Part shown: one piece after another, positions 2,687-64,000 of the stretch
Layout of the letters: every line of letters begins with the position of its first letter
How positions within the stretch are numbered: the first letter of the stretch is position 1
NCBI GenBank assembly: GCA_963727445.1
Contig: CAVSGI010000010.1
Span: 1,512,621 to 1,576,620, forward strand
DNA: 64,000 nucleotides
Direction: 5' to 3'
From: an uncultured delta proteobacterium
Lineage (GTDB): Bacteria > Myxococcota_A > Polyangia > Polyangiales > B10-G4
Notes under the pieces: generated by a model
What the model was told of the DNA's origin: nothing
The model's database searches: none
Seen by the model: only the letters and a program-made list of their open reading frames with translations
Position numbers and translations under genes: made by a program

Positions 2687-2748
2687 GGTGATCACTATGC
2701 GGATCTCGGGCCCGCACCACCACGCCGACGGTCTTAACCGGGCTTAGC

Positions 2749-3859
2749 TCACCAACGAATCGCCGCTCCGTCGAAGCGTACGGTGGCACCGTCGTGCCAA
2801 CCGGTACCTACGCGAAAGGATCGGATGCCGCGGTTGACCACGTCTTTCGACAGGACGCCGGTTTCACCGGAGAGAACTCGAAGCGGCACCTGGTAGCGGC
2901 GATACCCGACGTTCGCCGCGAGGGTCAGGGCCCCCACGAGGAAGAAATCCTGGCCCGAAGAGGCTGGGGTCGAAATGCCCAGCTGGGCCCAATAGCCGTG
3001 TGCGTCGCTCTCGATCGCGACGTAGAGCTCGAGGAAAGCGAGCTGAAACTGTCCTTCATCGAGGGTCAGTGGGTAGTCGAGTGCTTCGATGCGGAGGTTC
3101 TCCCAGCACGAGGGATACGGCGGGTCCACTGGATCACAGACGGGTCTGCCGTACTCCTCGCCCGACGGGTAGACATCCCGCGCGCAGTGGGCCGTCCATT
3201 CCCAGTAGTGGTCCCCGTCCTGGGCCGAGGCGCTCCCCGTTGCGAAATCGATGCACGTGGGATTCGGAGCTGCGGAATCCCGCGGACTCGTCAGCCATCG
3301 GAAAACCGAGGTCCGCTGGTGGGTTCAGGAGCACGCCGATGACGTCACTGCACGTGACGCGACTGGAGCTGTCCTCGGCGACGAGCCTGACGTGGTACTG
3401 CTCGGCGGGCGTCAGCTCGAAGAGAGTCGTCGCCACGACCGGGTCCGCGCCCGCGGCGCCCACCAGAAAACTCCGCGCCAGCTCGGGATTGTCGTCGCTG
3501 GTGACCGTTCGAAACAGCTCGCCCGCCAGGAGCTGCTCCTCGGAGGCGGCGATGTCCACCTCGTACGCGAAGAGCTCATCGAGGTTGTCCGCCTCCCAAG
3601 CGATGCGCGCTTGGCTTGCGGTGACCCACTCGACGTGGAGATTCGTGATGGTAATCGCTCCGGGCTCGGCCTCCGGTCGTCCACAGACCCCGGCCGCACC
3701 ACGCACGCAGACGTTTGCGCTCCTGTCGCACTGCCACCCAGCCGCGCAGGGACACTCGAGGCCGGTGGTGGGCACGGGCTCGAGCACGCAGCCCCCGACG
3801 ACCATCGCGAGGAGTGTCGAGAAGGCGCCGAGGACCTGGGGCAACGGCTTCTTCACCAC
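2749..3859 (-). pseudogene. Lipoprotein with Cys-rich and FN3-like regions, split by one frameshift near 3280
   Basis: GTG 3859 (TATACT 6 nt upstream), lipobox VGGC; protein-like reading continues in another frame (DSAAPNPTCIDF...YWEWTAHC...) into ORF 2749-3129. Confidence 0.65.
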
Positions 3860-3881
3860 GAGCGAAGTATAGCTGAAACCG

Positions 3882-5711
3882 TCACCGCCGCGGGCAGGCC
3901 CACTCGCCGAGGGGATACGCGCCGATGTCGACGGACGCGACGCCGAAGAACTCACCGACGCCAGCGCCGACGGCCGGGCTCGTGGCCGACAGGTGCAGGT
4001 CCGCCGGGGCGCCGACGAAGTCTGGGTCTGCCGAGATGCTGCTGCTCTCCTCGTCGAACTCGCTCCGAAACTCTGGCAGGGTGTAGGGCGTGCCCGAGTA
4101 CTCGCCGCCGGTCCAGTTCGGACGCAGATGGATGTCTGCCTGGGTGTTGTCGAAGAAGAGGTTGTTGAAGGAGCTGTAGTGCCCCACGTAGTCGTCGACC
4201 GTGGTGGTCGTTCCGCCGCTGTGGAGGTAGAACCCCGCGTCCAGGCCGGCGAAGATGTTGTTGAAGAAGCGATGGCCGGTAGGCCCATCGAAGCCCAGGC
4301 GGATGCCGACGCCGCCGCCGTAGAAGTCGTTGTTGAAGACCCAATTGTCGTCGCTGTCCTCGGCACTGCCCGGCAGGCGGACGCCGACCCGAGCGTTGAC
4401 CACGACGTTGCCGTAGATCCGCCAGTGGCCCCCTGGTCGATACTCGGCGTCCGTCGGCTGACAGCCGTCGGTGTTCGTCGCGGACCACACGCAGCGGTAG
4501 CCACCTGGCTCGAAAGCCGTGTTCACGTCGTGGATGTAGTTGTAGCGGGCGATCAGGTTGGAGACGCCGCTCTTGACGCCTATCGCGGCCTGGCCCGGGA
4601 TGTCGAAGACCTCGTTGTACTCCACGACGTGGGGGTTGTCCGGGTCGGAGACCATGAACGTGATCCCCTTGCTGTTCGAGACGCCACCCCAGTAGACGGA
4701 GTCGAACACGACGTTGTAGCGGACCAGCGCCCCTCCCGAGCTCCAGATCCGCATGCCGTAGGAGTTGTCGTTGCCGTTCGAGGTGTGACCGAAGACGTTG
4801 CCCTCCACGACGATGTCGTCGGCACCTTCGAAGAAGATGGGCTGCGGCTGCGCGTAGTAGATCTCCAGGCCACGCACGACGAGGTGGTCCGACCAGAACC
4901 GGCCGAGACCCCGCTGGCTCAGCTCGTACACCTCGTCGTTGGGGTCCTCACCCGCCGGTGGATAGAAGTAGATGAAGCAGCCTTCGTTGTCGCCGAAGCA
5001 CTGATTGCCGTCGGCGTCCGCCTTCGTCCAGTGGTCGGGGTCGACCAGGTTCGAGACGTTGTCGTGGTCCCGGCCGCCGTCGAGGTCCGACTGGTGGGTG
5101 ACCCGCCGGTCCCCATGGAACATTGCCTTCGGATCGTTTTCGAGGAACCCGGCCGGCGTGCGCCAGATGTTCGCATCGTACGACTCCCAGCTTCGTCCCT
5201 CCGTGCTCAGCGATCCGTAGATCCGCACGCGCTCGCCCGGGTATCCGCGAATGGTCACGTAGGCGGTCTCGGTCCCGTCATCGATGCCGACGTCGTAGGA
5301 GGGCTCCTCCATCACGCGGTAGAGGCCTTCGCGAATGGTGAGCGTATCGCCCGGGGTGAGGGCGGACAGGCCTTTTCGGATGCTGCGGAATGGCGACTGC
5401 ATCGTGCCCGGGTCGTCGTCGTCACCGGTGGTGGCCACGAAGTACTCGGTGCCCACGGTGGACAGCGGCGTCGTCTCGCACGAAACCGGGTCGATGCAGG
5501 CGCCACAGTCGAGGACGCACGTAGTGCAGTCTTCGCCGCCACTACACACGTCGTCGCCGCACATCGGCGCGCCCCCGGCATCTGCTCGGCCCGCCGCGTC
5601 GGGAGGGTCGCTCGCGTCCGGGAGCGGGCTCGCATCGCCTGCGCTCATGTCATTCGAGGTGGCGCAACCGAGGAGGCACACCATCAACGAGCAGTAGCAA
5701 AATCGACCCAC
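3882..5711 (-). CDS. Lipoprotein with right-handed beta-helix (DUF1565-like) and Cys-rich repeat
   Basis: Lipobox LLGC, CGDDVC...C repeat, YFVATTGDD...PFRSI...PGDTLTIREGLY, C-terminal ADPDFV...DLHL...DIGAY. Confidence 0.8.
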   Translation of the reverse strand: MGRFCYCSLMVCLLGCATSNDMSAGDASPLPDASDPPDAAGRADAGGAPMCGDDVCSGGEDCTTCVLDCGACIDPVSCETTPLSTVGTEYFVATTGDDDDPGTMQSPFRSIRKGLSALTPGDTLTIREGLYRVMEEPSYDVGIDDGTETAYVTIRGYPGERVRIYGSLSTEGRSWESYDANIWRTPAGFLENDPKAMFHGDRRVTHQSDLDGGRDHDNVSNLVDPDHWTKADADGNQCFGDNEGCFIYFYPPAGEDPNDEVYELSQRGLGRFWSDHLVVRGLEIYYAQPQPIFFEGADDIVVEGNVFGHTSNGNDNSYGMRIWSSGGALVRYNVVFDSVYWGGVSNSKGITFMVSDPDNPHVVEYNEVFDIPGQAAIGVKSGVSNLIARYNYIHDVNTAFEPGGYRCVWSATNTDGCQPTDAEYRPGGHWRIYGNVVVNARVGVRLPGSAEDSDDNWVFNNDFYGGGVGIRLGFDGPTGHRFFNNIFAGLDAGFYLHSGGTTTTVDDYVGHYSSFNNLFFDNTQADIHLRPNWTGGEYSGTPYTLPEFRSEFDEESSSISADPDFVGAPADLHLSATSPAVGAGVGEFFGVASVDIGAYPLGEWACPRR

Positions 5712-5917
5712 AGAGACCTCCTGACGTGCTGAGCGGAGGGCAATTTCGGTGTTCGCCAGCGTCTGCCTCCGCTCCCTTCACAAAGCGTGATCGCGGTCGC
5801 CGCGTCCAGGCATCGCTTCTGAGCTGCTCTGAGCTGGCCTCGGATCGTCCGCGCATCTAAGTGCGGTTAAGCGAGGCGCGGTGGCTCGCCCCAGCCTCCA
5901 TCGCCCAGGATGGAGAC

Positions 5918-7684
5918 ATGGTCGAACGAGGGCTTTGTTGCGCACTGGTCGCCTTGTGCGCGTGTACCGGGGGGGTGGTGGGCTCGACGAGCCCCGAGGA
6001 CGGAAGCGCGCCGGTACCGGCGGACGGCGGGGTCGACGCCACGAGCAGCGGCCCCGACGCCGCTCCGGATGGGGCGGCACGGGACGCGGAGATCCCACGA
6101 GATCCGGGGCCATCAGACGCCCCAGGCGGACCGATCGTCGACGCTCCCATCGTCGGCTGCGAGGACGCCGACCGTCCCGCACGCCGGCTCGCGAGCCCAG
6201 ACGAGGTTTGTGAAGCGGTGGATGGCGCGCGCTGCTGGTACGTGAGCCCCGAGGGCAGCGACGATGCTCCCGGTACCTTCGAGCAGCCGTTGGGCAAAGC
6301 GCAGGAAGCCGCCAAGCGCGTCGGGCCTGGCGACATCATCTATCTGCGCGGAGGGGTCTACGACGAGGACAACGCCTTCGTGTCCAGAGTGAACCAATGG
6401 AGCAACCCCGACGCGGGGGTGCAGCACGCCTTCTTCCGCGCGGGGTCGATCTCCTTGCCCGACTGGGCCGGCGGCGACAACTACGACGTGGCATCCGGAA
6501 CCGAGGAAGCGCCCATCGTCCTTCGCTCCTTCCCCGGCGAGCGGGCCTGTGTCTCAGGCGCAGGCGGAATCGGGTTCGGCAGCTTGAGGACCGAGATCGC
6601 CTATTGGAGCGTCGAGAACGTCACGCTCCACGGGGCCGCCATCGGCATCGGGGGCGGCCGTGGCACGGCGGACGCCCCTGAAAACCAGACGCACGAAATC
6701 ACCGTGGCCGGCAACGAGGTCTTCGGGGTTCAGGAGAGCTCCGGTCACAACACGGGGCTCGTCAAGGTCGACCGGGGAGACGGCGGCGGTCCCTACGACA
6801 TCACGATCGAGAGCAACATCCTTCATGAGCTCTATTGCCGAGACAGCGATGGGGTGGTGCGTGGATGGGACACGATGCACGACGCACAACACTACGCGGC
6901 GATCACGACGCTGAGCTGCGAGACCTACTTCGGCGTCGAATGTGGCGGCAACGGTGCGCTCACCGCTCGCAACAACCACATCTATCACGTCCCCCAGGCC
7001 TTCTTCCTCAAGAACCCGGCGGTGGGCCCGTTCCATCTCTACGACAACGTCATCCACGACATCGGGAGCATGGGGAAGTGGTCGCCTTCGAACATCACCT
7101 TCGAAAACAACCTCGTCTATGGAGGGATCGGTCGAATCGACCTCGGTGGCTCCGGTGGCAGTGCCGAGACCACGGGCGTCTACGAGCGCATGGGCCGCAA
7201 TCTGACCGTGCGAAACAATACGTTCATCGGCATGAACACCCTGGTCCACTTTCGGATCTACGCGTCCGGCCACACGGTCGAGGGCAACATCATCCAAGGT
7301 CTGTTCTCCATGGACCAGGCCGACTGGGACCACATGGGGTACATCTTCCAGTCGCAGGGATGGGTCAACCCGGACATGGAGCCCAACATCGAGCTGTCGC
7401 AGCTGGCGCGCGAAAACACCTTCGATGACAACTGCTTCATCACACCGAACCACGACTTTCTCGCCTACGGCCGTCGCTTCGATCCGGGCACCGGAACGGA
7501 GCTCACGCACCTGAGCCTCGAGGACGCCCGTACGCGCCTGTCCTACGAGCTGACCAGCGACGTCGTCGATTCGTTGGAGGAGGCGCTGGTCGAACCGACG
7601 ACGGGGGACTACCGCGTACGTGTTGACGGCCCGTGCGCTGGTCGCGGAGCCACGCCGCCCGACTGGGCCAGGTCGATCCCATGA
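5918..7684 (+). CDS. Lipoprotein with right-handed beta-helix, paralog of 923-2686
   Basis: GGAG RBS before ATG 5918; shares long blocks with the paralog, e.g. APIVGCEDA, AITTLSCETY, NNHIYHVPQAFF. Confidence 0.8.
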   Translation: MVERGLCCALVALCACTGGVVGSTSPEDGSAPVPADGGVDATSSGPDAAPDGAARDAEIPRDPGPSDAPGGPIVDAPIVGCEDADRPARRLASPDEVCEAVDGARCWYVSPEGSDDAPGTFEQPLGKAQEAAKRVGPGDIIYLRGGVYDEDNAFVSRVNQWSNPDAGVQHAFFRAGSISLPDWAGGDNYDVASGTEEAPIVLRSFPGERACVSGAGGIGFGSLRTEIAYWSVENVTLHGAAIGIGGGRGTADAPENQTHEITVAGNEVFGVQESSGHNTGLVKVDRGDGGGPYDITIESNILHELYCRDSDGVVRGWDTMHDAQHYAAITTLSCETYFGVECGGNGALTARNNHIYHVPQAFFLKNPAVGPFHLYDNVIHDIGSMGKWSPSNITFENNLVYGGIGRIDLGGSGGSAETTGVYERMGRNLTVRNNTFIGMNTLVHFRIYASGHTVEGNIIQGLFSMDQADWDHMGYIFQSQGWVNPDMEPNIELSQLARENTFDDNCFITPNHDFLAYGRRFDPGTGTELTHLSLEDARTRLSYELTSDVVDSLEEALVEPTTGDYRVRVDGPCAGRGATPPDWARSIP

Positions 7685-53947: not shown

Positions 53948-55402
53948 GTGGACCTGGCCGCCGAGAACGCCGCGCTCAAGGCCGAACTGGCCGCGCGCGA
54001 CGCTCGTGTCGCGGAGTTGGAGGCGAAGGTCGCTCGTCTCGCCGAGCTGGAATCGGAGCTGGCGAAGCTGCGCGAGCTGCTCGGTCGTGACTCGAGCAAC
54101 TCGAATCTACCGCCGTCGAGCGACGGCCCCGGCAAGAGCCGCAATCAGCGCAAAGCCGAGCGCAGGAAGCGCAAGGTCAAGAAGCGCGGCGGCCAGAAGG
54201 GTCACGAGGGCTCGCACCGCGCGCTGCTGCCGGCCGAGCGGATGGACGCGGTCGAGGATTACTTTCCGTGCGCGTGCGGGCGCTGCGGCCGGAGGCTGCC
54301 CCGGGTCGCCGACCCACGAGCGAAGCGCTACCAGCAGACAGATCTCGATCGCGATGGAGTGTTTCGGACGGAGCACCGGCGCCACCGCGTGACCTGCCCG
54401 TCGTGTGGACACCGGACGTGGGCGACGTACGACGACAACGAGATCCCGCGTTCTCCGTTTGGCCCCGGGCTGACGAGCGCGGTGGTGCTGCTCACGGGCG
54501 TGTACCACCTGAGCCGGCGCAAGACGGTGAGCTTGTTGTGGGAGCTGCTCGGCGTGCGGATGTCGGTGGGAAGCGTCAGCGGGATCGAGAAACGGATGAG
54601 CGCAGCCGTGGCGCCCGCGGTGGACGAAGCGTGGGAGCACGCGAGAGCCGCGAGCGTCAAGCATGCCGATGGCACGACCTGGCTTCGCGCGGGCGTGGCG
54701 CTGTCCCTATGGGTCATCGCGACGGCGGCGGTCTCCGTGTTCAAGGTCCTGCCCAACGGCCGGGGCAAGACGCTGCGCGACAAGCTCTTCGTCGAGGTCC
54801 GCGGCATCCTGGTCAGCGACCGAGCGACGGCGCTGAAGTTCTGGGCGATGAAAAAGCGCCAAGTCTGCTGGGCTCACCTGCTTCGCAAGTTCGTCTCCTT
54901 CTCGCAGCGCGCCGGCCCGGCCGAATCCATCGGCAAGGAGCTGCTCGACTACACGGCGATCCTCTTCGACTACTGGTCCAAGTACCAACACGGCGAGCTG
55001 AGCCGCACGGCGTTCGTCGAGCGGATGGCACCGGTGCGTCTTCAGGTCGAGGCCACGCTCGAGCGCGCGGTGGCGATGGGCGAGGACGAGCTGTCCGGCT
55101 CTTGCGCCGACATCCTCGCGCACCGCGAGGCCCTGTGGACCTTCGTCGACCGCAACGGCGTCGAGCCGACGAACAACCACGCCGAGCGCGAGCTGCGCGC
55201 GTTCGTGCTCTGGCGCAAGCGCTCGTTCGGCACCCAGAGTGAACACGGAGATTGGTTCGCCGAGCGGATGATGACCATCGCGCACACGGCGCGAAAGCAG
55301 GGCATCGCCGTCCTCGACTTCCTCACCGCCTGCTGCGAGGCGAAGCTCGAGGGGGCAGACGCCCCGTCGCTCTTCGACCGCTCCCTTCGCGCAGCCGCCT
55401 GA
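53948..55402 (+). CDS. tnpC: IS66 transposase
   Basis: DSSNSNLPPSSD, GGQKGH, Zn finger, QVCWAHLLR, PTNNHAERELR. Confidence 0.95.
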   Translation: MDLAAENAALKAELAARDARVAELEAKVARLAELESELAKLRELLGRDSSNSNLPPSSDGPGKSRNQRKAERRKRKVKKRGGQKGHEGSHRALLPAERMDAVEDYFPCACGRCGRRLPRVADPRAKRYQQTDLDRDGVFRTEHRRHRVTCPSCGHRTWATYDDNEIPRSPFGPGLTSAVVLLTGVYHLSRRKTVSLLWELLGVRMSVGSVSGIEKRMSAAVAPAVDEAWEHARAASVKHADGTTWLRAGVALSLWVIATAAVSVFKVLPNGRGKTLRDKLFVEVRGILVSDRATALKFWAMKKRQVCWAHLLRKFVSFSQRAGPAESIGKELLDYTAILFDYWSKYQHGELSRTAFVERMAPVRLQVEATLERAVAMGEDELSGSCADILAHREALWTFVDRNGVEPTNNHAERELRAFVLWRKRSFGTQSEHGDWFAERMMTIAHTARKQGIAVLDFLTACCEAKLEGADAPSLFDRSLRAAA

Positions 55403-55859: not shown

Positions 55860-56009
55860 TCCGGTCACATCGCCCGACGTCACGCCCAACCCTGCCAGTT
55901 GTGACCGCTATCCGGTCACATCGCCCGACGTCACGCCCAACCCTGCCAGTTGTGACCGCTATCCGGTCACATCGGCCGACGTCACGCCCAACCCTCGGAG
56001 TTGCGACCG
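55860..56009. repeat. Three tandem 51-bp hairpin repeats (REP-like)
   Basis: Units at 55860, 55911 and 55962 (third diverged); arms CGGTCACA...TGTGACCG. Confidence 0.85.
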
Positions 56010-56045
56010 ACTCGACCCGATGACGGTCAGCCGCCCCAAAACCAA

Positions 56046-56072
56046 AGCGCCCCGGCTCATCGCCAGGGCGTC
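56046..56072 (-). terminator. Probable terminator downstream of the tRNA fragment
   Basis: GC hairpin GCGCCCCGGC-TCATC-GCCAGGGCGT followed by a T-rich run on the minus strand. Confidence 0.45.
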
Positions 56073-56126
56073 GGTGCGGAAGAGAGGAATCGAACCTCCA
56101 CGGGTTTTACCCCACAGGAACCTGAA
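56073..56126 (-). other. 3' half of tRNA-Leu(CAG): att site of an integrated element
   Basis: TTCAGGTTCCTG, long variable arm, GGAGGTTCGATTCCTC T-arm, acceptor strand; the 5' half is replaced at the anticodon loop. Confidence 0.85.
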
Positions 56127-56381
56127 GCGTCTCCCAGGGTACCTGGCACCAGTGATTCCGAGCAGTTGCGTGCGTCAGAACGCGGCACGGAGGGTCAAAA
56201 CGGGACCCATTCGCGGCACGGTGCCGCAATCGAGGGCGCGCTCGCTGAGGCCCTCGCCACCTGGCGCGAGGACGGCGATGTCGCAGCCCTGCGCCGTCAG
56301 ATTTGAGGCTCCTACTCGTCTTGGACGAGGGCGCGGAGCTCGATGTTTGACCCGGGATCTCCGGGACCGGAGGATGAGGAC

Positions 56382-57131
56382 GTGGCGACACAATCGACGA
56401 TAGAGTGGACGGAAACGACTTGGAATCCTGTGCGTGGCTGCACGAGGATCAGCCCCGGCTGCGAGCGCTGCTACGCCGAGTCCATGGCTCACCGCTTCAG
56501 CGGAGCCGGCGGGCCGTACGAGGGGCTGACCCGGAACCGCGGGAACGGACCACGCTGGAGTGGGAAGCTCCGACTGGTCGAGGAAGGCGTCGATGAGCCC
56601 CGCAGGTGGCGTCGGCCGCGGATTGTCTTCGTGAACTCGATGTCCGACCTGTTCCACCAGAAGGTCCCGCTCGCCTTCATCCAGCGGATCTTCGCAACCA
56701 TGGAGGCATGCCCGCAGCACACCTTCCAGGTCCTCACGAAGCGAGCCGACCGACTCCTCGAACTCTCGGGATCGCTTCCATGGCCGAAGAACGTTTGGAT
56801 GGGAGTGTCCGTCGAGAGCGCTGAATACGAATGGCGAGTCGACCGCCTCCGCGAGGTCCCAGCCGAAGTTCGGTTCCTCTCACTCGAGCCCCTCCTCGGG
56901 CCACTCTCGAACCTGGACCTCGACGGAATCCATTGGGTCATCGTCGGCGGCGAATCCGGACCAGGAGCACGACCGATGAAGAAGACATGGGTGCGCGCCG
57001 TTCGGCGTCAGTGTCGGAGAGCCGGCGTGCCCTTCTTCTTCAAGCAGTGGGGCGGAGTGCGGAAGAAGGAGGCGGGTCGCAAGCTCGACGGTCGTACCTA
57101 TGACGAGATGCCGGTGGCGGTCGGCGCGTAG
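56382..57131 (+). CDS. Phage Gp37/Gp68 (DUF5131) family protein
   Basis: IEWTETTWNPVRGC..ISPGCERCYA, FVNSMSDLFH, LSLEPLLG, GGESG, FFFKQWGG. Confidence 0.92.
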   Translation: MATQSTIEWTETTWNPVRGCTRISPGCERCYAESMAHRFSGAGGPYEGLTRNRGNGPRWSGKLRLVEEGVDEPRRWRRPRIVFVNSMSDLFHQKVPLAFIQRIFATMEACPQHTFQVLTKRADRLLELSGSLPWPKNVWMGVSVESAEYEWRVDRLREVPAEVRFLSLEPLLGPLSNLDLDGIHWVIVGGESGPGARPMKKTWVRAVRRQCRRAGVPFFFKQWGGVRKKEAGRKLDGRTYDEMPVAVGA

Positions 57132-57133
57132 CC

Positions 57134-58041
57134 ATGAGCCCGGGGGACAGCTCTGACGGCGATGCGTCGCACCGCTTCGGTGGGGAGTGGACGCGGCAGA
57201 AGCTCGAGGTGCTCGAGAAGTACCTGGCGGCGTACACACAGGCCCTGAAGAACCAGTCCTTCCGGACCGCATACATCGATGCGTTCGCTGGAACCGGCTA
57301 TCGCGCGGATGCGGATTCCGAAGCGGAGCTTGGGGAACCGATGTTCCCCGACCTCGCAGCCGACGAGCCGCAAGGGCTGCTGGATGGATCGGCGAGTATC
57401 GCCCTCCGACTCGAGCGCGCATTCTCGAAGCACATCTTCATCGAGTGTAGCCGTGCTCGGTGCGCGCAGCTCGAGAGTTAAGGGACGATTTCCCAGAGCG
57501 CGCGAGCGACATCGAGATTGTCCAGGGCGACGCCACCGACGAGATCCGCACGCTCTGTGCGAAGGACTGGCGCCGCCACCGGCGGTGATGGTCCTCGACC
57601 CGTATGGAATGCAGGTGGAGTGGTCCACGGTCGAGGCCATCGCCCGCACGCAAGCCGTCGACCTTTGGCTCCTGTTCCCCCTGGCTGGGGATCGGTATCA
57701 ACCGGCTGCTGCCCAAGAGCGGCGAGATCCCGGACCACTGGCGCCGTCGGATCGATCTCTTCCTGGGTACCGACGACTGGTACGAGGAGTTCTATCGGGT
57801 CGAGGCCACGCCGACCCTCTTCGGCACCGACGAGGAGCAGCTCGTAAAGGCCGGTATGGACGTGATCGGCCAGTACTTCCTCGAGCGACTTGGAGGGATC
57901 TTCGCTGATGTCGCCGAGCCCGGTGTGCTACGAAACCGCACGGGCTGTCCGCTGTACCTGCTGTGCTTTGCCGCGGCGAACCCGCGGGGGGCGAAGCCAG
58001 CGCTGCGGATCGCACGCAGCCTGCTCAGTGACCTTCGCTGA
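57134..58041 (+). pseudogene. tcmP: Three-Cys-motif partner protein (TcmP-like methyltransferase fold), three frameshifts
   Basis: WT..KLE.L..YL, YIDAFAGTG, LDPYG, PLYLLCFAA.N; frame breaks near 57478, 57582 and 57685. Confidence 0.8.
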
Positions 58042-58090
58042 CTTTCGAAGCTCACCGGAGCCCGAATTCAACGTCCTACCGTTCAAGCGC

Positions 58091-58464
58091 GTGTCCGACC
58101 GCCGCCAAGAAGAGGAAGAAGGCGCCCTCCTCCTTCCGGCGAGCGCCTCGCACGCATCCGTCGTGAGCGCGGCTTCACCCAGGTCGAGCTCGCCGAGCGT
58201 GTCGACCTCATCCAGGTCCTCATCAGCGACTACGAGCGCGGAAAGCTCCGGCCCTACGCCGACGTCGTCGTCCGCTTCGCCAAGGTCCTCGACGTCTCCA
58301 CCGACGAGCTCCTCGGCCTCAGCGACCGCCCGAAGAAGATCGCCCAGCCTCTCAATCGACGCCTCATGAGGCGGCTTCATGCGATCGAGGACCTGCCGAA
58401 GAGGGACCAGGACGCGCTCATCCGGACGATCGACGCCTTCTTGGGCAAGCAGAAGGCGGGGTAG
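58091..58464 (+). CDS. XRE-family HTH regulator (two extra C bases in the first 50 nt; missed by the ORF track)
   Basis: Manual translation GERLARIRRERGFTQVELAERV...ISDYERGKLRP...LDVSTDELLG...IEDLPKRDQDALIRTIDAFL. Confidence 0.85.
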
Positions 58465-58468
58465 CCCA

Positions 58469-59257
58469 GTGGCCGGCGACGCCGACGAAGAGGCGATCGT
58501 CACCGCCGCCCAGCAGGCTGTTGCAGACAAGGTGGGTGGATCGCTGTGCTTCCTGCTGCCAGGTCGGCGTGGGGAGATCCCGGAATCCGCCGGCAGCGGC
58601 GTCCTGATTCGGACGCGCCGGGATCACCTTGTCGTCTTGACGGCGAAACACGTGGCCGAGGACGCCGCCTCGCAAGAGATCCGCCTCGGCTACATCCAGT
58701 GTGGAAACACCCTGTCCGACTTCGTACGCGGGATGGAGCTTCATCCGGACCCCGCCGTCGACGTAGGTCTACTCGGCGTCAAGCCCTCCTACGAGCTGAT
58801 CCTCCGCTCGCTCGCCGAGAGCATCGACGACGTTGCGGAGGACGATCGCGTGATTGTCGAAGGCGACTGGCTCGTGCTCACGGGTTTCCCCGCAGAGTTC
58901 ATCAAGAAGCAGCGCTTCGAGTACGGCTTCACGAGCGTCTGCTACACCACCGGGCTCACCGACCCGCCCCGGGACGAGTCCGGGCGGTTTCGAATCGAGT
59001 GGTCGGAGAGAGTGACGCCCTTTGGGGCCGTCCCGATGCCACATCCCGGAGGGATCAGCGGGGGCGCGCTTTGGCGTTTCCGGCCCGTCCGGAGCGACGA
59101 CGAGCTCTGGTCGCCCACATCACGAGGAAGGCTCATCGGGATCCCCTGCTCTTGGGATTGCGTCCGCACGCAGTTCGCGGAGCCCACCTCGCGCTGGCGA
59201 GACTGGTTCCTCGAGAAGATCGAAGTGCTCGACGAGCATCTCAGCTCGGCCACCTGA
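58469..59257 (+). CDS. Trypsin-like serine protease
   Basis: GSGVLI, LTAKHV (His), DVGLL (Asp), GISGG (Ser); no signal peptide. Confidence 0.75.
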   Translation: MAGDADEEAIVTAAQQAVADKVGGSLCFLLPGRRGEIPESAGSGVLIRTRRDHLVVLTAKHVAEDAASQEIRLGYIQCGNTLSDFVRGMELHPDPAVDVGLLGVKPSYELILRSLAESIDDVAEDDRVIVEGDWLVLTGFPAEFIKKQRFEYGFTSVCYTTGLTDPPRDESGRFRIEWSERVTPFGAVPMPHPGGISGGALWRFRPVRSDDELWSPTSRGRLIGIPCSWDCVRTQFAEPTSRWRDWFLEKIEVLDEHLSSAT

Positions 59258-59302
59258 GTCTCTTGCGGGCATGCGCCCGGATCATGGTTATTGAGCGGGG
59301 TC

Positions 59303-60352
59303 ATGGCTACCGAGCCGTCAGAGTCGACCGCCGCTGAGCCGCTCAAGGTCGACCTCGACCAGGCGGACTGGGCGTACATGGCCGATGGCAAGGCAGCGGC
59401 CGCGAAGGACAAGCTCGCCAAGCTGGGAGCATCGGGCCAGGCGATCTTCCTGATCTCGCACGAGCACCTCGTGGAGACGGCGGCTCTTGCCGAGGGCAGC
59501 CGCGAGCGGTTCCGATTTCTTCGGTCGTTCCCCGCTGTACTCCGCCTTCCCGACGCCGGTGCTTCGCTCATTCATGGGCATGCTGCAGCTTCACTACTCG
59601 CCTACGCGGGCAGATGCACTCCCCCTCAGTCGCTCCCTCTCGAGGCTCGCGCAGTCGCCCTGGAGCCGGAGGAGTTCTGGGACCAGTGGGCGTCGTCCCA
59701 TGGAAAACGAATGGTGCGGCTCTTCGACATGAAGGCCCGACCCGAGCGCTTTGCGCGAAAGGCACGACTCGGAAAGACGGCGAAGGACCTCGAGCACGAC
59801 GCACGATCCCTCGGCGCGTTGTCTCTCGGCGACCAAGCTCGCTTTGAGAAGCTTCTCCAGCGCGGGCCCGACGCTCCGGGCCCTCGTTGGGTACGCCTCA
59901 CCCGACTCGCCACGCCGTTCATCCAGAGGTTCTACGAAGTCGTCGCCAGCCATGGGTGGCTGCCACCACCCGGCAGGAAGTTCGACGACGTCTTCGGAAG
60001 CATGCTTCTGGCCGGACTTCCACGAGCGCTTCGTCGCGATCACAAGCTCGTCAAGGATCTCCAGCGATGTTGGGACGACAGTTCCGTCCGCTGCCGCATT
60101 GCTCCCTCACTGGCCTGCACGGCGAGCGTCATCGAGACGACCAAGCGCGAAACTGAGCGCAAGAAGTACGGCCGCGCCGACGTCATCGACCCGCTTCATG
60201 CGGCGTACGCCCCACACGTCGACATCTTCACCTGCGACAAGCGCAACGAAGCTCCGCTGAGAGACGTGCTCGCAAAGGCAAGCGTCGCGACCAAGGTCAT
60301 CCGGACCAATCGGCTCGAGAAGGTCGCCGACGAGATCCTCGGCTCGACATGA
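59303..60352 (+). CDS. Hypothetical protein, PIN-like nuclease fold suspected
   Basis: N-terminal LDQ..W and S.EH..E, C-terminal D..D..HA.YA...DIFTCDK. Confidence 0.55.
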   Translation: MATEPSESTAAEPLKVDLDQADWAYMADGKAAAAKDKLAKLGASGQAIFLISHEHLVETAALAEGSRERFRFLRSFPAVLRLPDAGASLIHGHAAASLLAYAGRCTPPQSLPLEARAVALEPEEFWDQWASSHGKRMVRLFDMKARPERFARKARLGKTAKDLEHDARSLGALSLGDQARFEKLLQRGPDAPGPRWVRLTRLATPFIQRFYEVVASHGWLPPPGRKFDDVFGSMLLAGLPRALRRDHKLVKDLQRCWDDSSVRCRIAPSLACTASVIETTKRETERKKYGRADVIDPLHAAYAPHVDIFTCDKRNEAPLRDVLAKASVATKVIRTNRLEKVADEILGST

Positions 60353-60381
60353 GCGCTGCCCTCCACCTCCCCACCGCGTTC

Positions 60382-60670
60382 ACCGCTCCGGCCGGGCGGC
60401 GAGTCGCTCCGCTCGGCACTTCGCCGAAGCCGGCTTCGGCGAAGTGGCCGGCCGGCGCGTCGCTTGCCGTGGCCTTCGTAGGATCACTCGCGCGCACCGA
60501 GGGGCGGCGCAAGCGCCGCGCCGGCCGCCTTCCCTCGCTCCGCTAAACATAAGCGGGGCGTCATGTTACCTCGCCGCCCGGCCGGAGCTCCGTGCGAGAC
60601 AGCCGGCCGGTCATGCCGCTTGCATCACGCGGAGCGTGAAGTGCGTGAGCAAGCGGCCCGCCCGGCCGGC
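60382..60670 (-). repeat. Structured element copy A (dif-like core 60543-60569; 30-bp palindrome 60417-60446)
   Basis: Reverse complement aligns by eye with 62401-62690. Confidence 0.8.
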
Positions 60671-60699
60671 TTCCTCACTTCGCAAGCGTCGCCCGCCAC

Positions 60700-61123
60700 A
60701 TGTCATTCGCTCCCATCCGAAGTCGAAGCTCCGATCGAGGGCCATCGTCGATAAACTCGGCCGCAGTCCTTCGGTCACCGAGTCGATTCGGATCGAGTGC
60801 CGACTCATGCGAAACAGTGACCACATCCGCGCCCCCTAGGTGTGGCGTGGTCCGAACCGACCTCTGGCGATGTTGAACGAAAACCTGAGAGTAGCCCACC
60901 GGATCGGCGATACACGTAGAGCCAGTACCCGATTCTGCTCCCACGACCAACCTCAGGGTAGTCACCAAAGAACTCCAGCAGCTCTTGCTCATCGGGTACG
61001 AAAGCGGTTGATATTGCAGCACGGACATCCTGTGGATCGCTGTCAAAAGCGTCGTCAACCGCCCGCGTCAGACTTGCCAAGTTGTTCCCCATGAAGAAGG
61101 TTCCACCGGGCCTCGAATCGCAT
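60700..61123 (-). pseudogene. Putative immunity gene of the Rhs-CT cassette, frameshifted
   Basis: GGAG RBS and ATG 61123 just after the toxin stop; lower GC; 3' end uncertain. Confidence 0.4.
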
Positions 61124-61151
61124 GGACTCCGTACCTCAAAGGCTCCCGTGC

Positions 61152-62072
61152 TCAGTCGGGATAAGTCCCGATTACGTTTGAAGAAGCCGGTCGAACTACG
61201 CAGCCCGTCTCGAGATGAGAGTTTCTCGCTTCCACTCGGGATTGTCGTGATCCCGATTCTTCCGAACTGGCGCGCGTCTGCGCTCCGCGATTGTGCTGAG
61301 GTCCCTCGGCGTCACCGAGCAGGTGTGAACTTGCCGGAGCAATCAGTGTACGAAACCGCTCCCGAACCGCGCGACCTCGCCGCACCTTGCCGCGGTGCGA
61401 AGCTGCGCAATGCTTCACGCACCCTAAGTCCGCCAGTCTCAGCAATCCCCATCCCCCATCCGAGACAGCGCCGGGTCGGTGTCTCGCTTCAGCCACCTGC
61501 GCTACCGTCCCCGTCCCACCGGAAGTCACGGCAGCGTTCGGAGCTGCTGAGTGCTCACGCCTGCCGGGCTTCCGCCCAGACTGGCGGCAACAATCGTCTC
61601 GTCTCCTTCGCTCCACTGAGAACCAGTTCGCGACGGCAACTGAACCGAGTTCGAGTCCGTCCGGCTCAACGCGAACACGGTAGCAGCCGTTGGAGCCGTC
61701 GAGCGAACCTGGACGTCCTCCCGCTGCTCGCATCAAGGACGCCGTTCCCAGCCACCGTTAGGATGGGGCGATGCACCCGTGGGCAAGTCTGTCGCGACAT
61801 TCGCCTGCCTCGTGGGACCTGCACCGCCAAGGATTGTCGGAATCCGCCAGCTCCCCCACTTGGTCCATCCGTTCGAGGAGTCGCGTCTTCGAGGCCCAGC
61901 GGATCTCGGCCTGAAGCAGATTCCCAGTGATGTAGTGATACGCGTTCAGCGCCTCACCCCCGCCGACCGCGTGGATATCAGCGGATCCGGGCAAGCCCAC
62001 CGCCCAATCCGCGGAATCAAATACCTCTCCCCGAAGTACGTGACCCCCACCTCGTCATCCGCCTCCTTGGCC
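61152..62072 (-). pseudogene. Orphan Rhs core end plus C-terminal toxin domain, frameshifted
   Basis: Across frames: KEADDEVGVTYFGERYLIPRIGRWACPDPL / IHAVGGGEALNAYHYITGNLLQA / RDPLGLE (DPxGL at 61891-61905). Confidence 0.75.
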
Positions 62073-62400
62073 GATCAGCGCGGCCAGATGCGATCCGGTC
62101 GTACATCGCGCGATTCGCCCAATGCGTTCCGGCGCTTAGCCGCCGGTCTCGCCCGGTGCGCCGCGCGCGTTTTGCTCGGTGCGCCTTAATGCGGGTTTCG
62201 GCTCGCACGGGCGCGCGCGGAGAGGGGTGGCGCGACGCGTGCTCTGCACGCGGCGTGACGCCCGAGGATGATCACGCGGCGCGTCGCGTTCACTTCTCGC
62301 GCGAAGGAAAGGCGGAGAGGCGGCGCGGGCCTTGCGGCGCGGGAGCGCGAGCGAAGCTGGCGCGGACGCGGTGCATGGGCCGTGACGCCGTGGTGGGTTG

Positions 62401-62690
62401 GGCGGCCGGGCACGACGCTTGCCCCGCGCGGAGCGCGGTCACGATCGCTGCGAGCGGCGTGCCCGGCCGCCCGGCTGTCGCAGAGCGGAGCCCGCCCGAC
62501 GAGTTGACATGAATGCCCTGCATTATGTCTAGCGGAGCGAGGGGACCCGGCCGGCGCGCCGCTTGCCTCGTCGCGTTTCGAGACCAGCGGCTAAAGAGAG
62601 AATCGCAAGCGGCGTGACGGACGGGCCTTTCGCAGAATGGCCATTCTGCGAAAGGCCGAGTGGAGCGACTCGTCGGGCGGGCGGAGCGGT
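62401..62690 (+). repeat. Structured element copy B (dif-like core 62504-62532; 34-bp palindrome 62624-62657)
   Basis: Inverted, diverged homolog of 60382-60670. Confidence 0.8.
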
Positions 62691-62764
62691 CGCGGCTCGT
62701 TCACGTTTCGCGAGTTGGTTCGTTCGGGTGGCGTTCCCTCGGCTGACGATTTACGATCCTCTTC

Positions 62765-62976
62765 GTGACTGATGCGGCCAAGAAGCTGATGGAGGAGGTC
62801 CTCGCGCTTCCCGCCGAGGAGCGCAAGCGCATGGGCACTGCGCTGCTCGACAGCGTCGACGACGAGGCGTTGCGCGAGCTCGTACTCCGACGTGCGGGAG
62901 AGATCGCGCGCGGTGAGGTCGTTCCAGGCGACGCGATGGACGTCTACCATCGGCTGATGGCAAGCGCCGCGACTGA
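62765..62976 (+). CDS. Addiction-module antitoxin (1-nt frameshift near the 3' end)
   Basis: LALPAEER...LLDSV...RRAGEIARGEV; TGA 62974-62976 overlaps the toxin ATG. Confidence 0.7.
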
Positions 62977-63295
62977 TGGCCGACGACATCCTCGCGATCG
63001 ACTCGGGCGCCGACGCGGACATCGAGGAGGCCTTCACGTACATCGAGCAGGAGCGTCCGGGTCACGGCTACATCTTCCTCGAGCGCTACCGCGAGCTCGT
63101 CGACGAGGCGGTCGCGACGCCGGGGCTCGGCATCAAGGTTGTCGGTATCCCGAGGACATGGACGTCCGCAAGCACCTGATGTCCCAGTTCGAGTACGCGC
63201 TGATCATCGCCACGATCGCGGGTCGCCGGAACGTCGCCGCGATCCACTTTCTCCGAAAGAGCGACGATTACATTCGACATCGGCTCCTCAAGTAG
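62976..63295 (+). CDS. ParE/RelE-family toxin (frameshift near 63150)
   Basis: ADADIEEAFTYI...PG.G..F, then VRKHLMSQFEYALI...VAAIHF.RK..DYI..RL. Confidence 0.7.
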
Positions 63296-64000
63296 CCGCG
63301 TCGTCATCCTCTTCCGCATCCAGCTCCTCGAGCAGCTCCTCCGCCGTCGGCTCCTCGTCTTCATCTCGCCCTTTTCGCTTCGGCTCGAGCCCCGCGGCCG
63401 GATGCGTCGCCGCATGAATCTGCTGGAGCTTGCGAATCGACACCTGCGTGTCGATCTGCGTCGTCGACAGGTCCGCGTGGCCGAGCATCTGCTGGATGAA
63501 GCGGATGTCGGCGCCGCCTTCGAGCATCAGCGTCGCCATCGTGTGGCGAAAGAAGTGCAGCTCCCCTCTTGCGGCTCGGCCGCGTTGACGTGTCGCGGAC
63601 AGTCGGTCAGGCGACTCTGCGCGATCGAGTCGCCGAGATGCGAGATGAAGAGCGCGCCGTCGTCGGGCGGGACGATGAGCTTCGGGCGGCTCTTCGTAGG
63701 TACGCATCGACCCAGCGGATGGCGCGCTCGCCCATCGGGATGATGCGGTCCTTGTGGTTCTTGCCGAGCCGAATGAGAGCGTGCCCGCGCCGGGTCGAGA
63801 TGGTAGAGCGCGAGGCCCACGAGCTCCTTGCGGCGGATGCCGGTCGAGTAGAGGACCTCGAGGATGGCGCGGTCGCGTAGCCCGAGCGGTTCGTTCGTGC
63901 CGGTGAGCGCGATCACGCGCTCGGCCTCGCTCGCGGTGAGCACGACGCGGGGCAGGCGCGTCTCGAGGCGCGGCAGCTCGAGCTCGGAGGCGGGGTTCGA
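63288..64000 (-). pseudogene. XerC/D-like tyrosine recombinase, partial, frameshifted, catalytic Tyr reads Asp
   Basis: RDRAILEVLYSTGIRR.E, FRHTMAT.MLEGGADIRFIQQMLGH...TTQIDTQV, acidic tail. Confidence 0.85.

What the first reader, a model, noticed from the sequence alone, without database searches (positions are those of the whole stretch)
60382..62690. Inverted pair of ~290-bp structured elements with dif-like cores flanking an Rhs toxin cassette
Seen in sequence: 60382-60670 (minus) and 62401-62690 (plus) are diverged homologs. Their cores are GTAACATGA-N8-TTATGTTTAG and TTGACATGA-N10-TTATGTCTAG. Each core is flanked on both sides by CGGCCG..GCTTGC..GC(A/G)AGC hairpins, and each copy has a perfect palindrome whose sequence changed while pairing was kept (CACTTCGCCGAAGCCGGCTTCGGCGAAGTG vs GGCCTTTCGCAGAATGGCCATTCTGCGAAAGGCC). 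Established: TTATGTTAAA is the XerD arm of dif. A Xer-like recombinase lies about 600 bp away. Inference: structure-dependent recombination sites or origins (or an ncRNA) of a Xer-type element that inverts or swaps toxin/defence cassettes, somewhat like integron attC or pdif sites.
Basis: partly seen in the sequence, partly recalled or inferred. Interest (0 to 1): 0.82.

Follow-up and report, generated by a model that had tools for sequence, protein, structure and literature searches.

The report
Structured dif-like ends bracketing Rhs cassette
The two inverted 290-bp elements are real copies of a conserved folded DNA site that bounds a widespread primase-plus-Xer-recombinase mobile element living in Rhs toxin loci, and they may be where toxin/immunity cassettes are joined or exchanged.

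Summary
Observation confirmed. A (60382-60670, -) and B (62401-62690, +) are homologs (71% over 248 nt, E 1e-20). The genome holds only 5 copies and Rfam has no match.

The shared ~220-nt core (E) is found across phyla: 26 of 37 genome loci and 53 of 69 metagenome loci picked by an 18-nt motif are true homologs. Its fold (P1 enclosing P2, P3 and P4) is 94.3% paired in 57 distinct sequences. 39 of 59 pairs carry compensatory changes, against 33-43% pairing when partners are slid.

E is the end of a backbone made of an XRE regulator, a DnaG-type primase with a P-loop domain, and a Xer-family recombinase. Of 33 copies with at least 4.5 kb on the 3' side, 24 have recombinase plus primase and 4 have the regulator. 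Three contigs carry inverted E at both backbone ends. Rhs core-end/toxin/immunity modules lie on the outer side.

The P4 palindrome arms match the host's putative dif XerC arm (B: 10 of 11). The P2 stem matches the XerD arm.

So A and B are the facing ends of two adjacent units. I read E as a Xer recombination site that bounds modules, as in dif modules. Origin and RNA roles remain open, and no inversion was seen.

The parts
62400..62472 (+). Copy B, extra 5' hairpin H1 (a P3-like CGGCCGG..GCTTGC..GCGAGC..CCGGCCG hairpin). It is present in this genome and in G023 only.
   Evidence: I6 (23-nt arms, 91% complementary). The CM matches the corresponding hairpin of G023 and L067 to the P3 part of the model.
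62476..62698 (+). Copy B, conserved core E (the E_R type, at the recombinase end of one unit). Parts: P1 62490-62504 with 62668-62682; P2 hairpin 62504-62532; motif 1 62531-62543; P3 62546-62566 with 62605-62625; P4 palindrome 62624-62657; motif 2 62656-62669.
   Evidence: CM R1 gives 207.9 bits, E 1e-43. Arms are listed.
60374..60597 (-). Copy A, conserved core E (the E_L type, at the regulator/cargo end of the adjacent unit). Parts: P1 60570-60588 with 60385-60403; P2 60543-60569; P3 60498-60527 with 60449-60478; P4 palindrome 60417-60446.
   Evidence: CM R1 gives 160.8 bits. Arms are (I9, I4, I21).
60596..60676 (-). Copy A, extra 5' hairpin H1. It starts 0-6 nt after the stop codon of the last cassette ORF.
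   Evidence: I5. The same junction occurs in C22 and C12 behind three different ORFs.
60675..62074 (-). Rhs module between the two copies: Rhs core-end fragment (62074-61979), a toxin-tip region, and small immunity-like ORFs (60675-61092). It is broken into short frames in this assembly. GC is 56-65% against 69% for the genome.
   Evidence: tblastn with a G352 Rhs core end. ORFs are and GC. The C22 homolog is intact: a 350-aa ORF with TIGR03696 at 27.3 bits (below the 32.5 cut-off) and a 139-aa ORF with DUF4240 at 25.9 bits (below cut-off).
62765..63295 (+). Two small ORFs between B and the recombinase. By eye they look like an antitoxin/toxin pair. The second is frameshifted here and intact in C22.
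   Evidence: ORFs are. Neither has a family hit. Only the positional counterpart in G352 gives a weak RelB/ParD hit (E 2e-4). The label is tentative.
63288..64000 (-). Xer-family tyrosine recombinase gene (Int), 3' part. It is frameshifted and runs off the contig end.
   Evidence: Pfam Phage_integrase on both pieces. Intact orthologs reach NCBIfam NF002331 'XerC' above its cut-off (423.7 and 447.3 against 371 bits). The best solved relative is XerD 1a0p.
58040..60352 (+). Remnant of the adjacent unit whose end is A: an XRE-type regulator (about 58040-58500, read in frame 57961), a trypsin-like ORF (to 59257) and a 353-aa ORF (59291-60352). The primase and recombinase of this unit are missing.
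   Evidence: Translation. 87% DNA identity to the regulator gene next to the primase on C22. Trypsin_2 at E 4e-4 and LmuA at E 2e-5 are both weak. The gene order is the same as in L102.

Best explanation
A and B are two copies of a conserved cis-acting DNA element, E. Its core is about 220 nt, and here each copy has one extra hairpin.

E marks the ends of the backbone of a widespread mobile element. The backbone encodes an XRE regulator, a DnaG-type primase fused to a P-loop domain, and a Xer-family tyrosine recombinase (Int). These elements sit in Rhs toxin loci. Rhs core-end/toxin-tip/immunity modules abut the outer (5') side of E. In the window, B is the recombinase-side end of one unit, A is the regulator-side end of the next, partly lost unit, and one Rhs module lies between them.

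E folds as a single strand (or extrudes from the duplex) into a closing stem P1 that holds three parts:
- an AT-rich hairpin P2, whose stem copies the XerD arm of the host dif site;
- a GC-rich hairpin P3;
- a perfect palindrome P4, whose arms copy the host XerC arm.

Inference: E is the site at which Int, probably together with host XerC/XerD, recombines DNA. On this reading the backbone and the Rhs module behave as modules bounded by inverted sites, as in the Acinetobacter dif-module system, and the modules can be exchanged between copies without being lost by excision.

Shown: homology, fold, copy number, synteny, dif-arm mimicry and breakpoints. Inferred: that recombination happens at E, which protein acts there, and that the folded form is the substrate.
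For: Fold:
- 57 distinct sequences are 94.3% paired. 39 of 59 pairs carry changes on both sides (497 cells). 0 of 500 shuffles reach this, and slid controls give 33-43% (smaller sets).
- The long-range stem P1 covaries in all 13 of its main pairs (helices 2 and 3). That calls for intramolecular pairing.

Link to the backbone:
- Of 33 copies with at least 4.5 kb on the 3' side, 24 have Int plus primase, 4 have the regulator side, 1 has primase only, 2 have Int only and 2 have neither.
- Of 69 copies with at least 1 kb, 39 have Int, 8 have the regulator and 22 have neither at my thresholds.
- Inverted E at both backbone ends occurs in L102, L095 and L107. The two L102 ends are 93% alike.
- Homology between genera stops 8-27 nt outside E's 5' edge and runs on through Int and primase on the other side.

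Rhs link:
- An Rhs core-end fragment lies within 2.5 kb on the 5' side in 21 of 53 copies that have room for it: 18 divergent and 3 co-oriented.
- The G352 array hangs on the 3' end of a gene of more than 2291 aa with SpvB, TcdB_mid and RHS domains.

Xer link:
- Int passes the NF002331 XerC cut-off.
- Single-copy conserved 28-bp dif-like sites were found in 9 related genomes.
- The P4 arm of B matches the own-genome XerC arm at 10 of 11 positions. A T/G difference at arm position 9 agrees between host and element in 7 of 7 genomes.
- The rc of the P2 left arm matches the host XerD arm at 9 of 11 positions (B and G352).

Breakpoints at these sites:
- The C12 half copy ends exactly after P2, 77 bp from the end of another tyrosine recombinase gene.
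- The C22 copy of A is cut at the centre of P4 by an IS91-type unit.
- G312a has a deletion that starts at the P4 centre.

Cassette border:
- Three different last ORFs stop 0-6 nt before A-type copies.
- The window and C22 share both flanks but carry different cassettes.
Against: - No recombination product was observed. There is no inverted cassette, no empty site and no circle junction among about 100 loci. The motif scans gave no two opposed matches closer than 5.6 kb.
- In the G352 array the outer borders are the 188-bp Rhs core-end repeats, not E. Integration there looks like recombination within the Rhs fragment.
- Many units (G352, G184, G137) have E at the recombinase end only.
- The distance between the paired arms varies: 1-11 nt in P2 and 6-10 nt in P4. 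This fits hairpins but not a classical duplex core with fixed spacing.
- XerC-type and XerD-type arms are never collinear as they are in dif.
- L095 keeps both E copies without Int, and L131 has Int plus E without primase.
- Int is frameshifted in both copies in this genome. This may be assembly noise, since several neighbouring genes are also broken.
- Host-element arm agreement could partly reflect shared descent of hosts and elements.
Confidence: 0.45

Rival explanations
1. E is a replication signal for the element's own primase/P-loop protein: an origin, or a single-strand initiation site that folds when the DNA is unwound. Inverted copies on opposite strands would serve the two strands.
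For: - The backbone encodes a DnaG-type primase (Zn ribbon plus Toprim). It is fused to a P-loop domain that looks like plasmid or viral MTBMA_p00010 proteins (feature score 0.98, a lead only).
- E is a conserved single-strand fold with few G-U pairs (2.7% of cells).
- It holds the only AT-rich stretch of the region.
- It has GCG(N)AGC motifs of concordant length in 42 of 44 sequences. From memory, these resemble the stable GNA mini-hairpins of ssDNA phage origins.
- L095 keeps both E copies and the primase but has no Int.
Against: - E lies next to Int, not next to the primase gene.
- L131 has two Int-E pairs without a primase.
- Dif-arm mimicry that follows the host dif has no obvious use in priming.
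- Breakpoints fall at P2 and P4.
- No repeated iteron array was seen beyond the two to four GCG(N)AGC motifs.
Confidence: 0.2
2. E is transcribed and acts as RNA. It could be a structured 3' end, terminator or insulator of the two outward-reading operons and of the incoming Rhs/immunity transcript, or a trans-acting ncRNA.
For: - Strong covariation.
- A mild strand bias: 85 G-U against 30 A-C cells, including one G-U pair kept in 33 sequences.
- E directly follows stop codons.
- Both backbone operons read out through E.
Against: - There is no Rfam match at gathering score. At E up to 1 the only hit is a chance miRNA match, E 0.26.
- G-U use is low for an RNA, and most compensation is Watson-Crick to Watson-Crick.
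- In the 14-sequence alignment, 13 keep P4 palindromic through its very centre. A hairpin loop does not need that.
- Host dif-arm mimicry points to DNA recognition.
- No U-run follows the stems.
- Expression could not be tested.
Confidence: 0.15
3. One reading: A and B are a working pair, and recombination between them inverts the Rhs cassette as a switch.
For: - The copies are in inverted orientation with the cassette between them.
- P4 is fully symmetric, so it would allow either alignment.
- Rhs modules occur in both orientations relative to E across genomes: 18 divergent and 3 co-oriented.
Against: - A and B are only 71% alike and their P2 loops and P4 centres differ. The two ends of a single unit in L102 are 93% alike with identical P2 loops.
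- Both loci in this genome have the same cassette orientation.
- The Rhs fragment has no upstream gene to be joined to in either orientation.
Confidence: 0.08
4. E is a selfish palindromic repeat (MITE- or REP-like), or decaying debris without a role in the neighbouring genes.
For: - It is GC-rich with nested palindromes.
- Some copies are truncated or have lost P3 or P4 (L047, L052, L053, L077, L079, L116, L153).
Against: - There are only 5 copies in 9.47 Mb.
- Its position relative to Int and the regulator is constant across phyla.
- Invariant unpaired motifs and compensatory changes persist over deep divergence.
Confidence: 0.03

Closest known systems
Acinetobacter dif modules (pdif sites on Rep_3/OrfX plasmids)
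   Same: A replicon backbone and accessory modules, often toxin-antitoxin genes, are each bounded by Xer-type sites in inverted orientation. Rearrangements occur between sites with like spacers (PMC13141974, abstract read). Here a primase/recombinase backbone and an Rhs module are bounded by inverted E copies that carry host-dif-like arms.
   Different: - pdif is a plain 28-bp XerC-spacer-XerD site used by the host XerCD. E is a 220-290-nt folded element whose XerC-type and XerD-type arms sit in two separate palindromes.
- The element brings its own Xer-family recombinase and primase.
- It is chromosomal, sits in Rhs loci, and occurs in Myxococcota, Acidobacteriota, Desulfobacterota and others.
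- That abstract calls dif modules unique to Acinetobacter.
Integron attC sites and integron integrase
   Same: - A structure rather than a sequence is conserved, and it covaries.
- The site sits right behind the stop codon of a promoterless-looking cassette.
- A tyrosine recombinase gene is nearby.
- By my recollection, the attC substrate is a folded single strand.
   Different: - By recollection attC is 57-141 nt, a single imperfect hairpin, with all copies in one orientation.
- Int scores 111 bits against the integron-integrase model, whose cut-off is 265.
- E is larger and branched, its copies are inverted, and at most two occur per unit.
IMEX elements such as CTX phage (folded ssDNA attP used by XerCD)
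   Same: Dif-arm mimicry that follows the host, and inverted dif-like arms that pair within a single strand (recalled).
   Different: - By recollection CTX attP forms one stem with the XerC and XerD arms in line, and it integrates at the host dif without a recombinase of its own.
- E's arms are in separate hairpins.
- The elements are not at the putative dif sites, which lie on other contigs.
Rhs orphan toxin/immunity arrays (C-terminal displacement) and Bacteroidales rAID-1 clusters
   Same: - Core-end fragment plus toxin tip plus immunity modules are stacked behind a main rhs gene.
- rAID has a tyrosine recombinase, arrays of orphan immunity genes and conserved intergenic motifs (10.1101/2025.05.03.651265, passages read).
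   Different: - Classical orphan arrays are explained by homologous recombination alone. Here each orphan comes with a primase/Xer backbone and E.
- As described in the passages I read, rAID has no primase and no large folded site.
- Homology to the rAID recombinase was not tested.

Membership tests
dif / pdif (Xer core site) | One XerC arm, a 6-8 bp spacer and one XerD arm in line, about 28 bp in all | tested here: not met
   P2 carries two XerD-like arms around 1-11 nt. P4 carries two XerC-like arms around 6-10 nt. No collinear C-spacer-D unit lies inside E.
dif / pdif (Xer core site) | Arms resemble the host chromosome's dif arms | tested here: met
   The P4 arm of B matches the putative dif of the own genome at 10 of 11 positions. 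Arm position 9 (T or G) agrees between host and element in 7 of 7 genomes. The rc of the P2 left arm matches at 9 of 11. The host sites are putative: they are single-copy, conserved 28-bp sites.
Acinetobacter dif-module system | Modules, including the replicon backbone, are flanked by inverted Xer sites | tested here: met
   L102, L095 and L107 have the backbone between inverted E copies. The window and C22 have the Rhs module between inverted E copies.
Acinetobacter dif-module system | Movement by host XerCD between sites with matching spacers | not testable with these tools
   No recombination product was seen, and no usable read data were available.
Integron (attC / IntI) | Recombinase of the integron-integrase family | tested here: not met
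   TIGR02249 gives 111-115 bits against a cut-off of 265. NF002331 'XerC' is passed instead.
Integron (attC / IntI) | Short single-hairpin sites, all in one orientation, one per cassette | tested here: not met
   E is a 220-290 nt branched fold. Its copies are inverted.
REP / BIME / MITE repeats | Many dispersed copies per genome, independent of particular genes | tested here: not met
   There are 5 copies in 9.47 Mb, and the neighbours are constant.
Any Rfam RNA family | Match at the family's gathering score | tested here: not met
   The whole window gives 0 matches at gathering score. In 60300-62800 at E up to 1 there is one chance hit, 21.4 bits against a gathering score of 90.
Rhs orphan module | Rhs core C-terminal end (..DPxGL) followed by a variable tip and a small immunity ORF | tested here: met
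   tblastn hits in the window, C22, G352, G184, G023 and others. In C22 the motif DPLGL is followed by a 350-aa ORF and then a 139-aa ORF. TIGR03696 scores below its cut-off (27.3 against 32.5 bits).

The most novel reading that the evidence does not exclude
E is a new class of structure-specific recombination site. It is a folded single-stranded, junction-like DNA that presents host-dif XerC-arm and XerD-arm hairpins. Through it a Xer-family recombinase, carried on a small self-replicating element, captures and exchanges Rhs toxin-tip/immunity cassettes. In effect this would be an integron-like or dif-module-like cassette system for polymorphic toxins, spread across several bacterial phyla.
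Probability: 0.25. Interest if true: 0.9.

Novelty: new variant of a known kind. Interest (0 to 1): 0.78.

Why it matters
- How new Rhs toxin tips and their immunity genes arrive and get stacked behind rhs genes is usually put down to homologous recombination with unknown donors. This finding names a concrete, widespread vehicle: an XRE/primase/Xer backbone with structured ends.
- It gives a testable site with defined parts (P2, P4 and two motifs).
- It extends module shuffling at inverted Xer-type sites, known from Acinetobacter plasmids, to other phyla. The site architecture differs, and the recombinase is carried by the element itself.
- The element is also an uncatalogued conserved nucleic-acid structure. 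It is about 220 nt long, 39 of its 59 pairs covary, and it has no Rfam family.
- The agreement between the palindrome arms and each host's dif arm gives a direct way to ask whether the host XerC/XerD proteins are recruited.

Tried and rejected
- **Rfam.** No family matched.
- **tRNA or tmRNA as integration target.** None was found in the window or in 7 loci.
- **Earlier notes of this scan.** Three look-ups returned nothing.
- **Sequencing runs.** One DNA run holds 0.05 of the sampled words and no RNA holder is listed. I did not lay reads, so expression, inversion and excision remain untested.
- **E as the integration border.** Rejected for G352, where the array is bounded by 188-bp Rhs core-end repeats and no E or half E sits at the left border.
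- **P2 as a duplex dif-type core.** Rejected because the distance between its arms varies from 1 to 11 nt and its closing pair covaries (AU 31, GC 21).
- **The two GCG(N)AGC motifs as plain direct-repeat protein sites.** Left open. Their lengths agree in 42 of 44 sequences, and they could also pair with each other through G-A mismatches.
- **Excision between the symmetric P4 sites of inverted ends.** This predicts L-P4-L' scars with two opposed motif matches within about 300 bp. None was seen in 37 plus 69 loci. Such long palindromes may also fail to assemble.
- **Target-site duplication at the ends of L102.** None seen.
- **Solved structures for the primase C-terminal half.** No sequence match. 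I did not predict its structure.
- **Cargo ORFs.** PADLOC and Pfam gave only weak hits.
- **Literature.** Searches found no description of this element. The library lacks most subscription journals. PMC4487195 and PMC3414803 (passages read) proved irrelevant.
- **Order-wide blastn.** 77 of 401 genomes matched at E up to 1e-3, but most matches are short GC-rich hairpin hits. Only 7 genomes (G023, G019, G312, G092, G137, G184, G352) matched the core.
Full report
**1. The observation**

The two stretches are there as described.
- MAFFT aligns them over about 300 nt.
- blastn gives 70.97% identity over 248 nt, E 1.2e-20.
- The cores, the flanking GCTTGC/GCAAGC hairpins and the two perfect palindromes (30 and 34 nt) are at the stated places.
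- As single strands both copies fold far better than dinucleotide shuffles (z = -8.6 and -7.3).

The element is not a dispersed repeat. A profile search of the 9.47-Mb assembly (27 contigs, 85.6% complete) finds A, B, a second pair on the 10-kb contig C22 (97% to B, 93% to A) and one half copy on C12. Rfam has nothing.

**2. A family with a conserved fold**

Homologs occur in 7 genomes of the same order that matched the core (of 401 searched). An 18-nt motif scan then gave 37 loci in species genomes and 69 in metagenomes. Of these, 26 and 53 are true homologs by nhmmer. They come from Polyangiaceae, Haliangium, Acidobacteriota, Thermoanaerobaculia, Desulfobacterota, Syntrophobacterales and a Saprospiraceae MAG, by record titles.

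The shared core, which I call E, is about 220 nt. Its order is P1a, P2, motif 1, P3, P4, motif 2, P1b.
- RNAalifold on 14 sequences predicts 59 pairs, 23 of them with compensatory changes.
- On 57 distinct sequences aligned with a covariance model, 94.3% of cells pair and 39 of 59 pairs change on both sides (497 cells). No shuffle out of 500 reaches this, and slid partners give 33-43%. The alignment was fitted to the model, which favours it somewhat.
- All 13 main pairs of the long-range stem P1 covary, which requires intramolecular pairing.
- G-U pairs are rare: 85 of 3163 cells, against 30 A-C. Of the 85, 33 come from one conserved pair in P3.
- P2 is an AT-rich stem, (A/G)ACATAA ... TTATGT(T/C), around 1-11 nt.
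- P4 is a perfect palindrome. Among the 14 sequences, 13 are palindromic through the very centre, with 6-10 nt between its ATAA/TTAT boxes.
- Motifs 1 and 2, GCG(N)AGCGA, have the same length in 42 of 44 sequences.
- This genome and G023 carry an extra P3-like hairpin on the 5' side.

**3. The neighbours**

On contig C22 and in other genomes, E follows a fixed gene set: an XRE regulator, read divergently, then a protein of about 1010 aa, then a tyrosine recombinase of about 350 aa.
- The large protein has a DnaG-type Zn ribbon and Toprim. Its P-loop C-terminal half looks like plasmid or viral MTBMA_p00010 proteins, which is a lead only. No solved relative was found.
- The recombinase passes the NCBIfam XerC-subfamily cut-off (423.7 and 447.3 against 371 bits). 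It is closest to XerD among solved structures.
- E lies 100-400 bp beyond the recombinase stop, on the other strand, with its P4 side facing the gene.

Counts:
- Of 69 copies with at least 1 kb on that side, 39 have this recombinase (at least 45% identity to my query) and 8 have the regulator instead. The other 22 have neither at my thresholds. Five of those (L088, L096, L098 and two in L099) have more distant recombinases.
- Of 33 copies with at least 4.5 kb, 24 have recombinase plus primase, 4 have the regulator side, 1 has primase only, 2 have recombinase only and 2 have none.

Three metagenome contigs show a whole unit with E at both ends, inverted, 5' sides outward: L102 (ends 93% alike), L095 and L107. 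Other contigs show E next to the regulator: L053, L076, L144, L146, L149, L153. Between genera, homology stops 8-27 nt outside E's 5' edge but runs on through the recombinase and primase. E is therefore the end of the conserved backbone.

**4. The Rhs link**

In G352, three units repeat every 7.7 kb. The 188-bp repeat at the unit borders is the C-terminal end of the Rhs core (...DPLGL). The leftmost copy is the end of a gene of more than 2291 aa with SpvB, TcdB_mid, FG-GAP and RHS domains.

An Rhs core-end fragment lies within 2.5 kb of E's 5' side in 21 of 53 copies with room for it. It is divergent in 18 and co-oriented in 3. None was detected in the other 32 with my single query.

In the window, in C22 and in L102 the order is the same: immunity-like ORF, stop codon, E_L, cargo, regulator, primase, recombinase, E_R, then the Rhs fragment, tip and immunity ORF. 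So in the window:
- B is the recombinase-side end of one unit. Its recombinase runs off the contig.
- A is the regulator-side end of the next unit. Of that unit only the regulator, a trypsin-like ORF and a 353-aa ORF remain.

The window and C22 share both flanks but carry different cassettes. The borders of the differing segment are the DPLGL end of the Rhs fragment and A's first hairpin. Three different last ORFs stop 0-6 nt before A-type copies.

**5. The dif likeness**

A short pattern built from the P4 arm finds the E copies in four Polyangiaceae genomes and, besides them, exactly one further site per genome. These extra sites share a conserved 28-bp block in otherwise unrelated DNA. Similar single sites occur in five more genomes, including this one (C3). 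I take them as the chromosomal dif sites. This is an inference from copy number, conservation and layout; the canonical dif layout is recalled.

- Own genome: ATTTCGCAGAA / GATAGA / TTATGTAAACT.
- The P4 arm of B is CTTTCGCAGAA (10 of 11). That of A is ACTTCGCCGAA (9 of 11).
- Hosts with ...CAGAA (this genome, G019) carry elements with G at that arm position. Hosts with ...CATAA (G352, G184, G137, G312, G092) carry T. That is 7 of 7 genomes, although hosts and elements are related among themselves.
- The reverse complement of the P2 left arm matches the host XerD arm at 9 of 11 positions, in B and in G352.
- The host has its own XerD (360 bits, above cut-off) and a XerC-like gene.

So E presents XerC-type arms as one palindrome and XerD-type arms as another. 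It never presents them in line.

**6. Breakpoints**

- The C12 half copy is 95% identical to A up to the last base of P2. Its loop differs, and it then meets unrelated DNA 77 bp from the end of a second kind of tyrosine recombinase gene. That gene is nearest to integron integrases but below the cut-off.
- The C22 copy of A stops at the centre of P4. There a unit of that same recombinase type plus an IS91-family transposase begins.
- G312a has an internal deletion that starts at the P4 centre.

These observations fit cleavage or hairpin extrusion at P2 and P4. Palindrome instability could also explain the last two.

**7. Reading**

Shown:
- a conserved folded element;
- its place at the ends of a primase/Xer backbone;
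- its tie to Rhs modules;
- host-dif arm mimicry.

Inferred:
- E is where the element's recombinase, perhaps with host XerCD, acts on folded or extruded DNA.
- The backbone and the Rhs module behave as modules bounded by inverted sites. The nearest known case is the Acinetobacter dif-module system (abstract of PMC13141974). Inverted sites would allow exchange or inversion without loss.

Against this reading:
- no product of such recombination was seen;
- the G352 array is bordered by Rhs repeats rather than by E;
- many units have only one E;
- the distance between paired arms varies.

An origin or priming role for the primase, or an RNA role, remains possible. I could not test expression.

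**8. Novelty**

Six literature searches found no description. The library is partial. I rate the finding as a new variant of known kinds (Xer-site modules, folded recombination sites) with an unusual site architecture. It also offers a concrete vehicle for Rhs toxin-tip spread.

Noticed in passing
L009 (contig C22) 7499-9667; L010 (C12) 5116-5982: A tyrosine recombinase nearest to integron integrases (209 bits, below the 265 cut-off) is paired with an IS91-family Y2 transposase. It is inserted exactly at the centre of the P4 palindrome of the C22 copy of A. A 51%-identical recombinase gene abuts the P2-truncated half copy on C12.
   Followed up: partly
L043 1979-2230, 10522-10773, 18234-18483 (G352): A conserved 252-bp segment (S2) starts right after the stop codon of each immunity ORF, in the position that E_L holds elsewhere. 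It has a stem of about 20 bp containing TAATGTTT / AAACATTA, the only other AT-rich motif in the region. It may be a diverged left end.
   Followed up: partly
window 56343-58041: A DUF5131 gene matches the PADLOC candidate-defence models PDC-M41B and PDC-M30B (E 1e-109). It is followed by a partner ORF that is split into two frames. An IS66-family transposase lies at 53948-55402. The region looks like a defence/competition island.
   Followed up: no
window 62976-64000, 57134-58041, 60675-62074; L009 3432-4500: Many genes here are broken by frameshifts: the recombinase in both copies (at different places), the toxin-like small ORF, the DUF5131 partner and the Rhs tip. Their homologs elsewhere are intact. 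I could not tell whether this is decay or noise in the assembly.
   Followed up: no
L010 (C12) about 1784-7200; also C21, C24, C11: A short repeat of about 70 bp, 94-99% identical between copies, occurs at least five times within 9 kb on C12 and also on other contigs. It leaves the same peptide-like string in several spurious ORFs. It is probably a MITE.
   Followed up: no
window 56001-56126: A 126-bp stretch is 98% identical to C13:9218-9342. Part of it (56045-56123) is 94% identical to C10:319931-320010. Its nature is unknown.
   Followed up: no
P4 in all E copies, e.g. window 60417-60446 and 62624-62657: The palindrome stays perfect through its central 2-4 nt while the sequence there changes (GGCC, CCGG, GCGC, GC-A-GC and others). 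A hairpin loop does not require this. A symmetric duplex site, or self-templated correction, would explain it. It remains unexplained.
   Followed up: partly
L099/L100 (metagenome contig), L098: A diverged branch of the family has two tandem tyrosine recombinase genes after the primase (30-37% identity to my queries). It still has E and an Rhs core-end fragment 311 nt beyond E, repeated every 7.76 kb.
   Followed up: no
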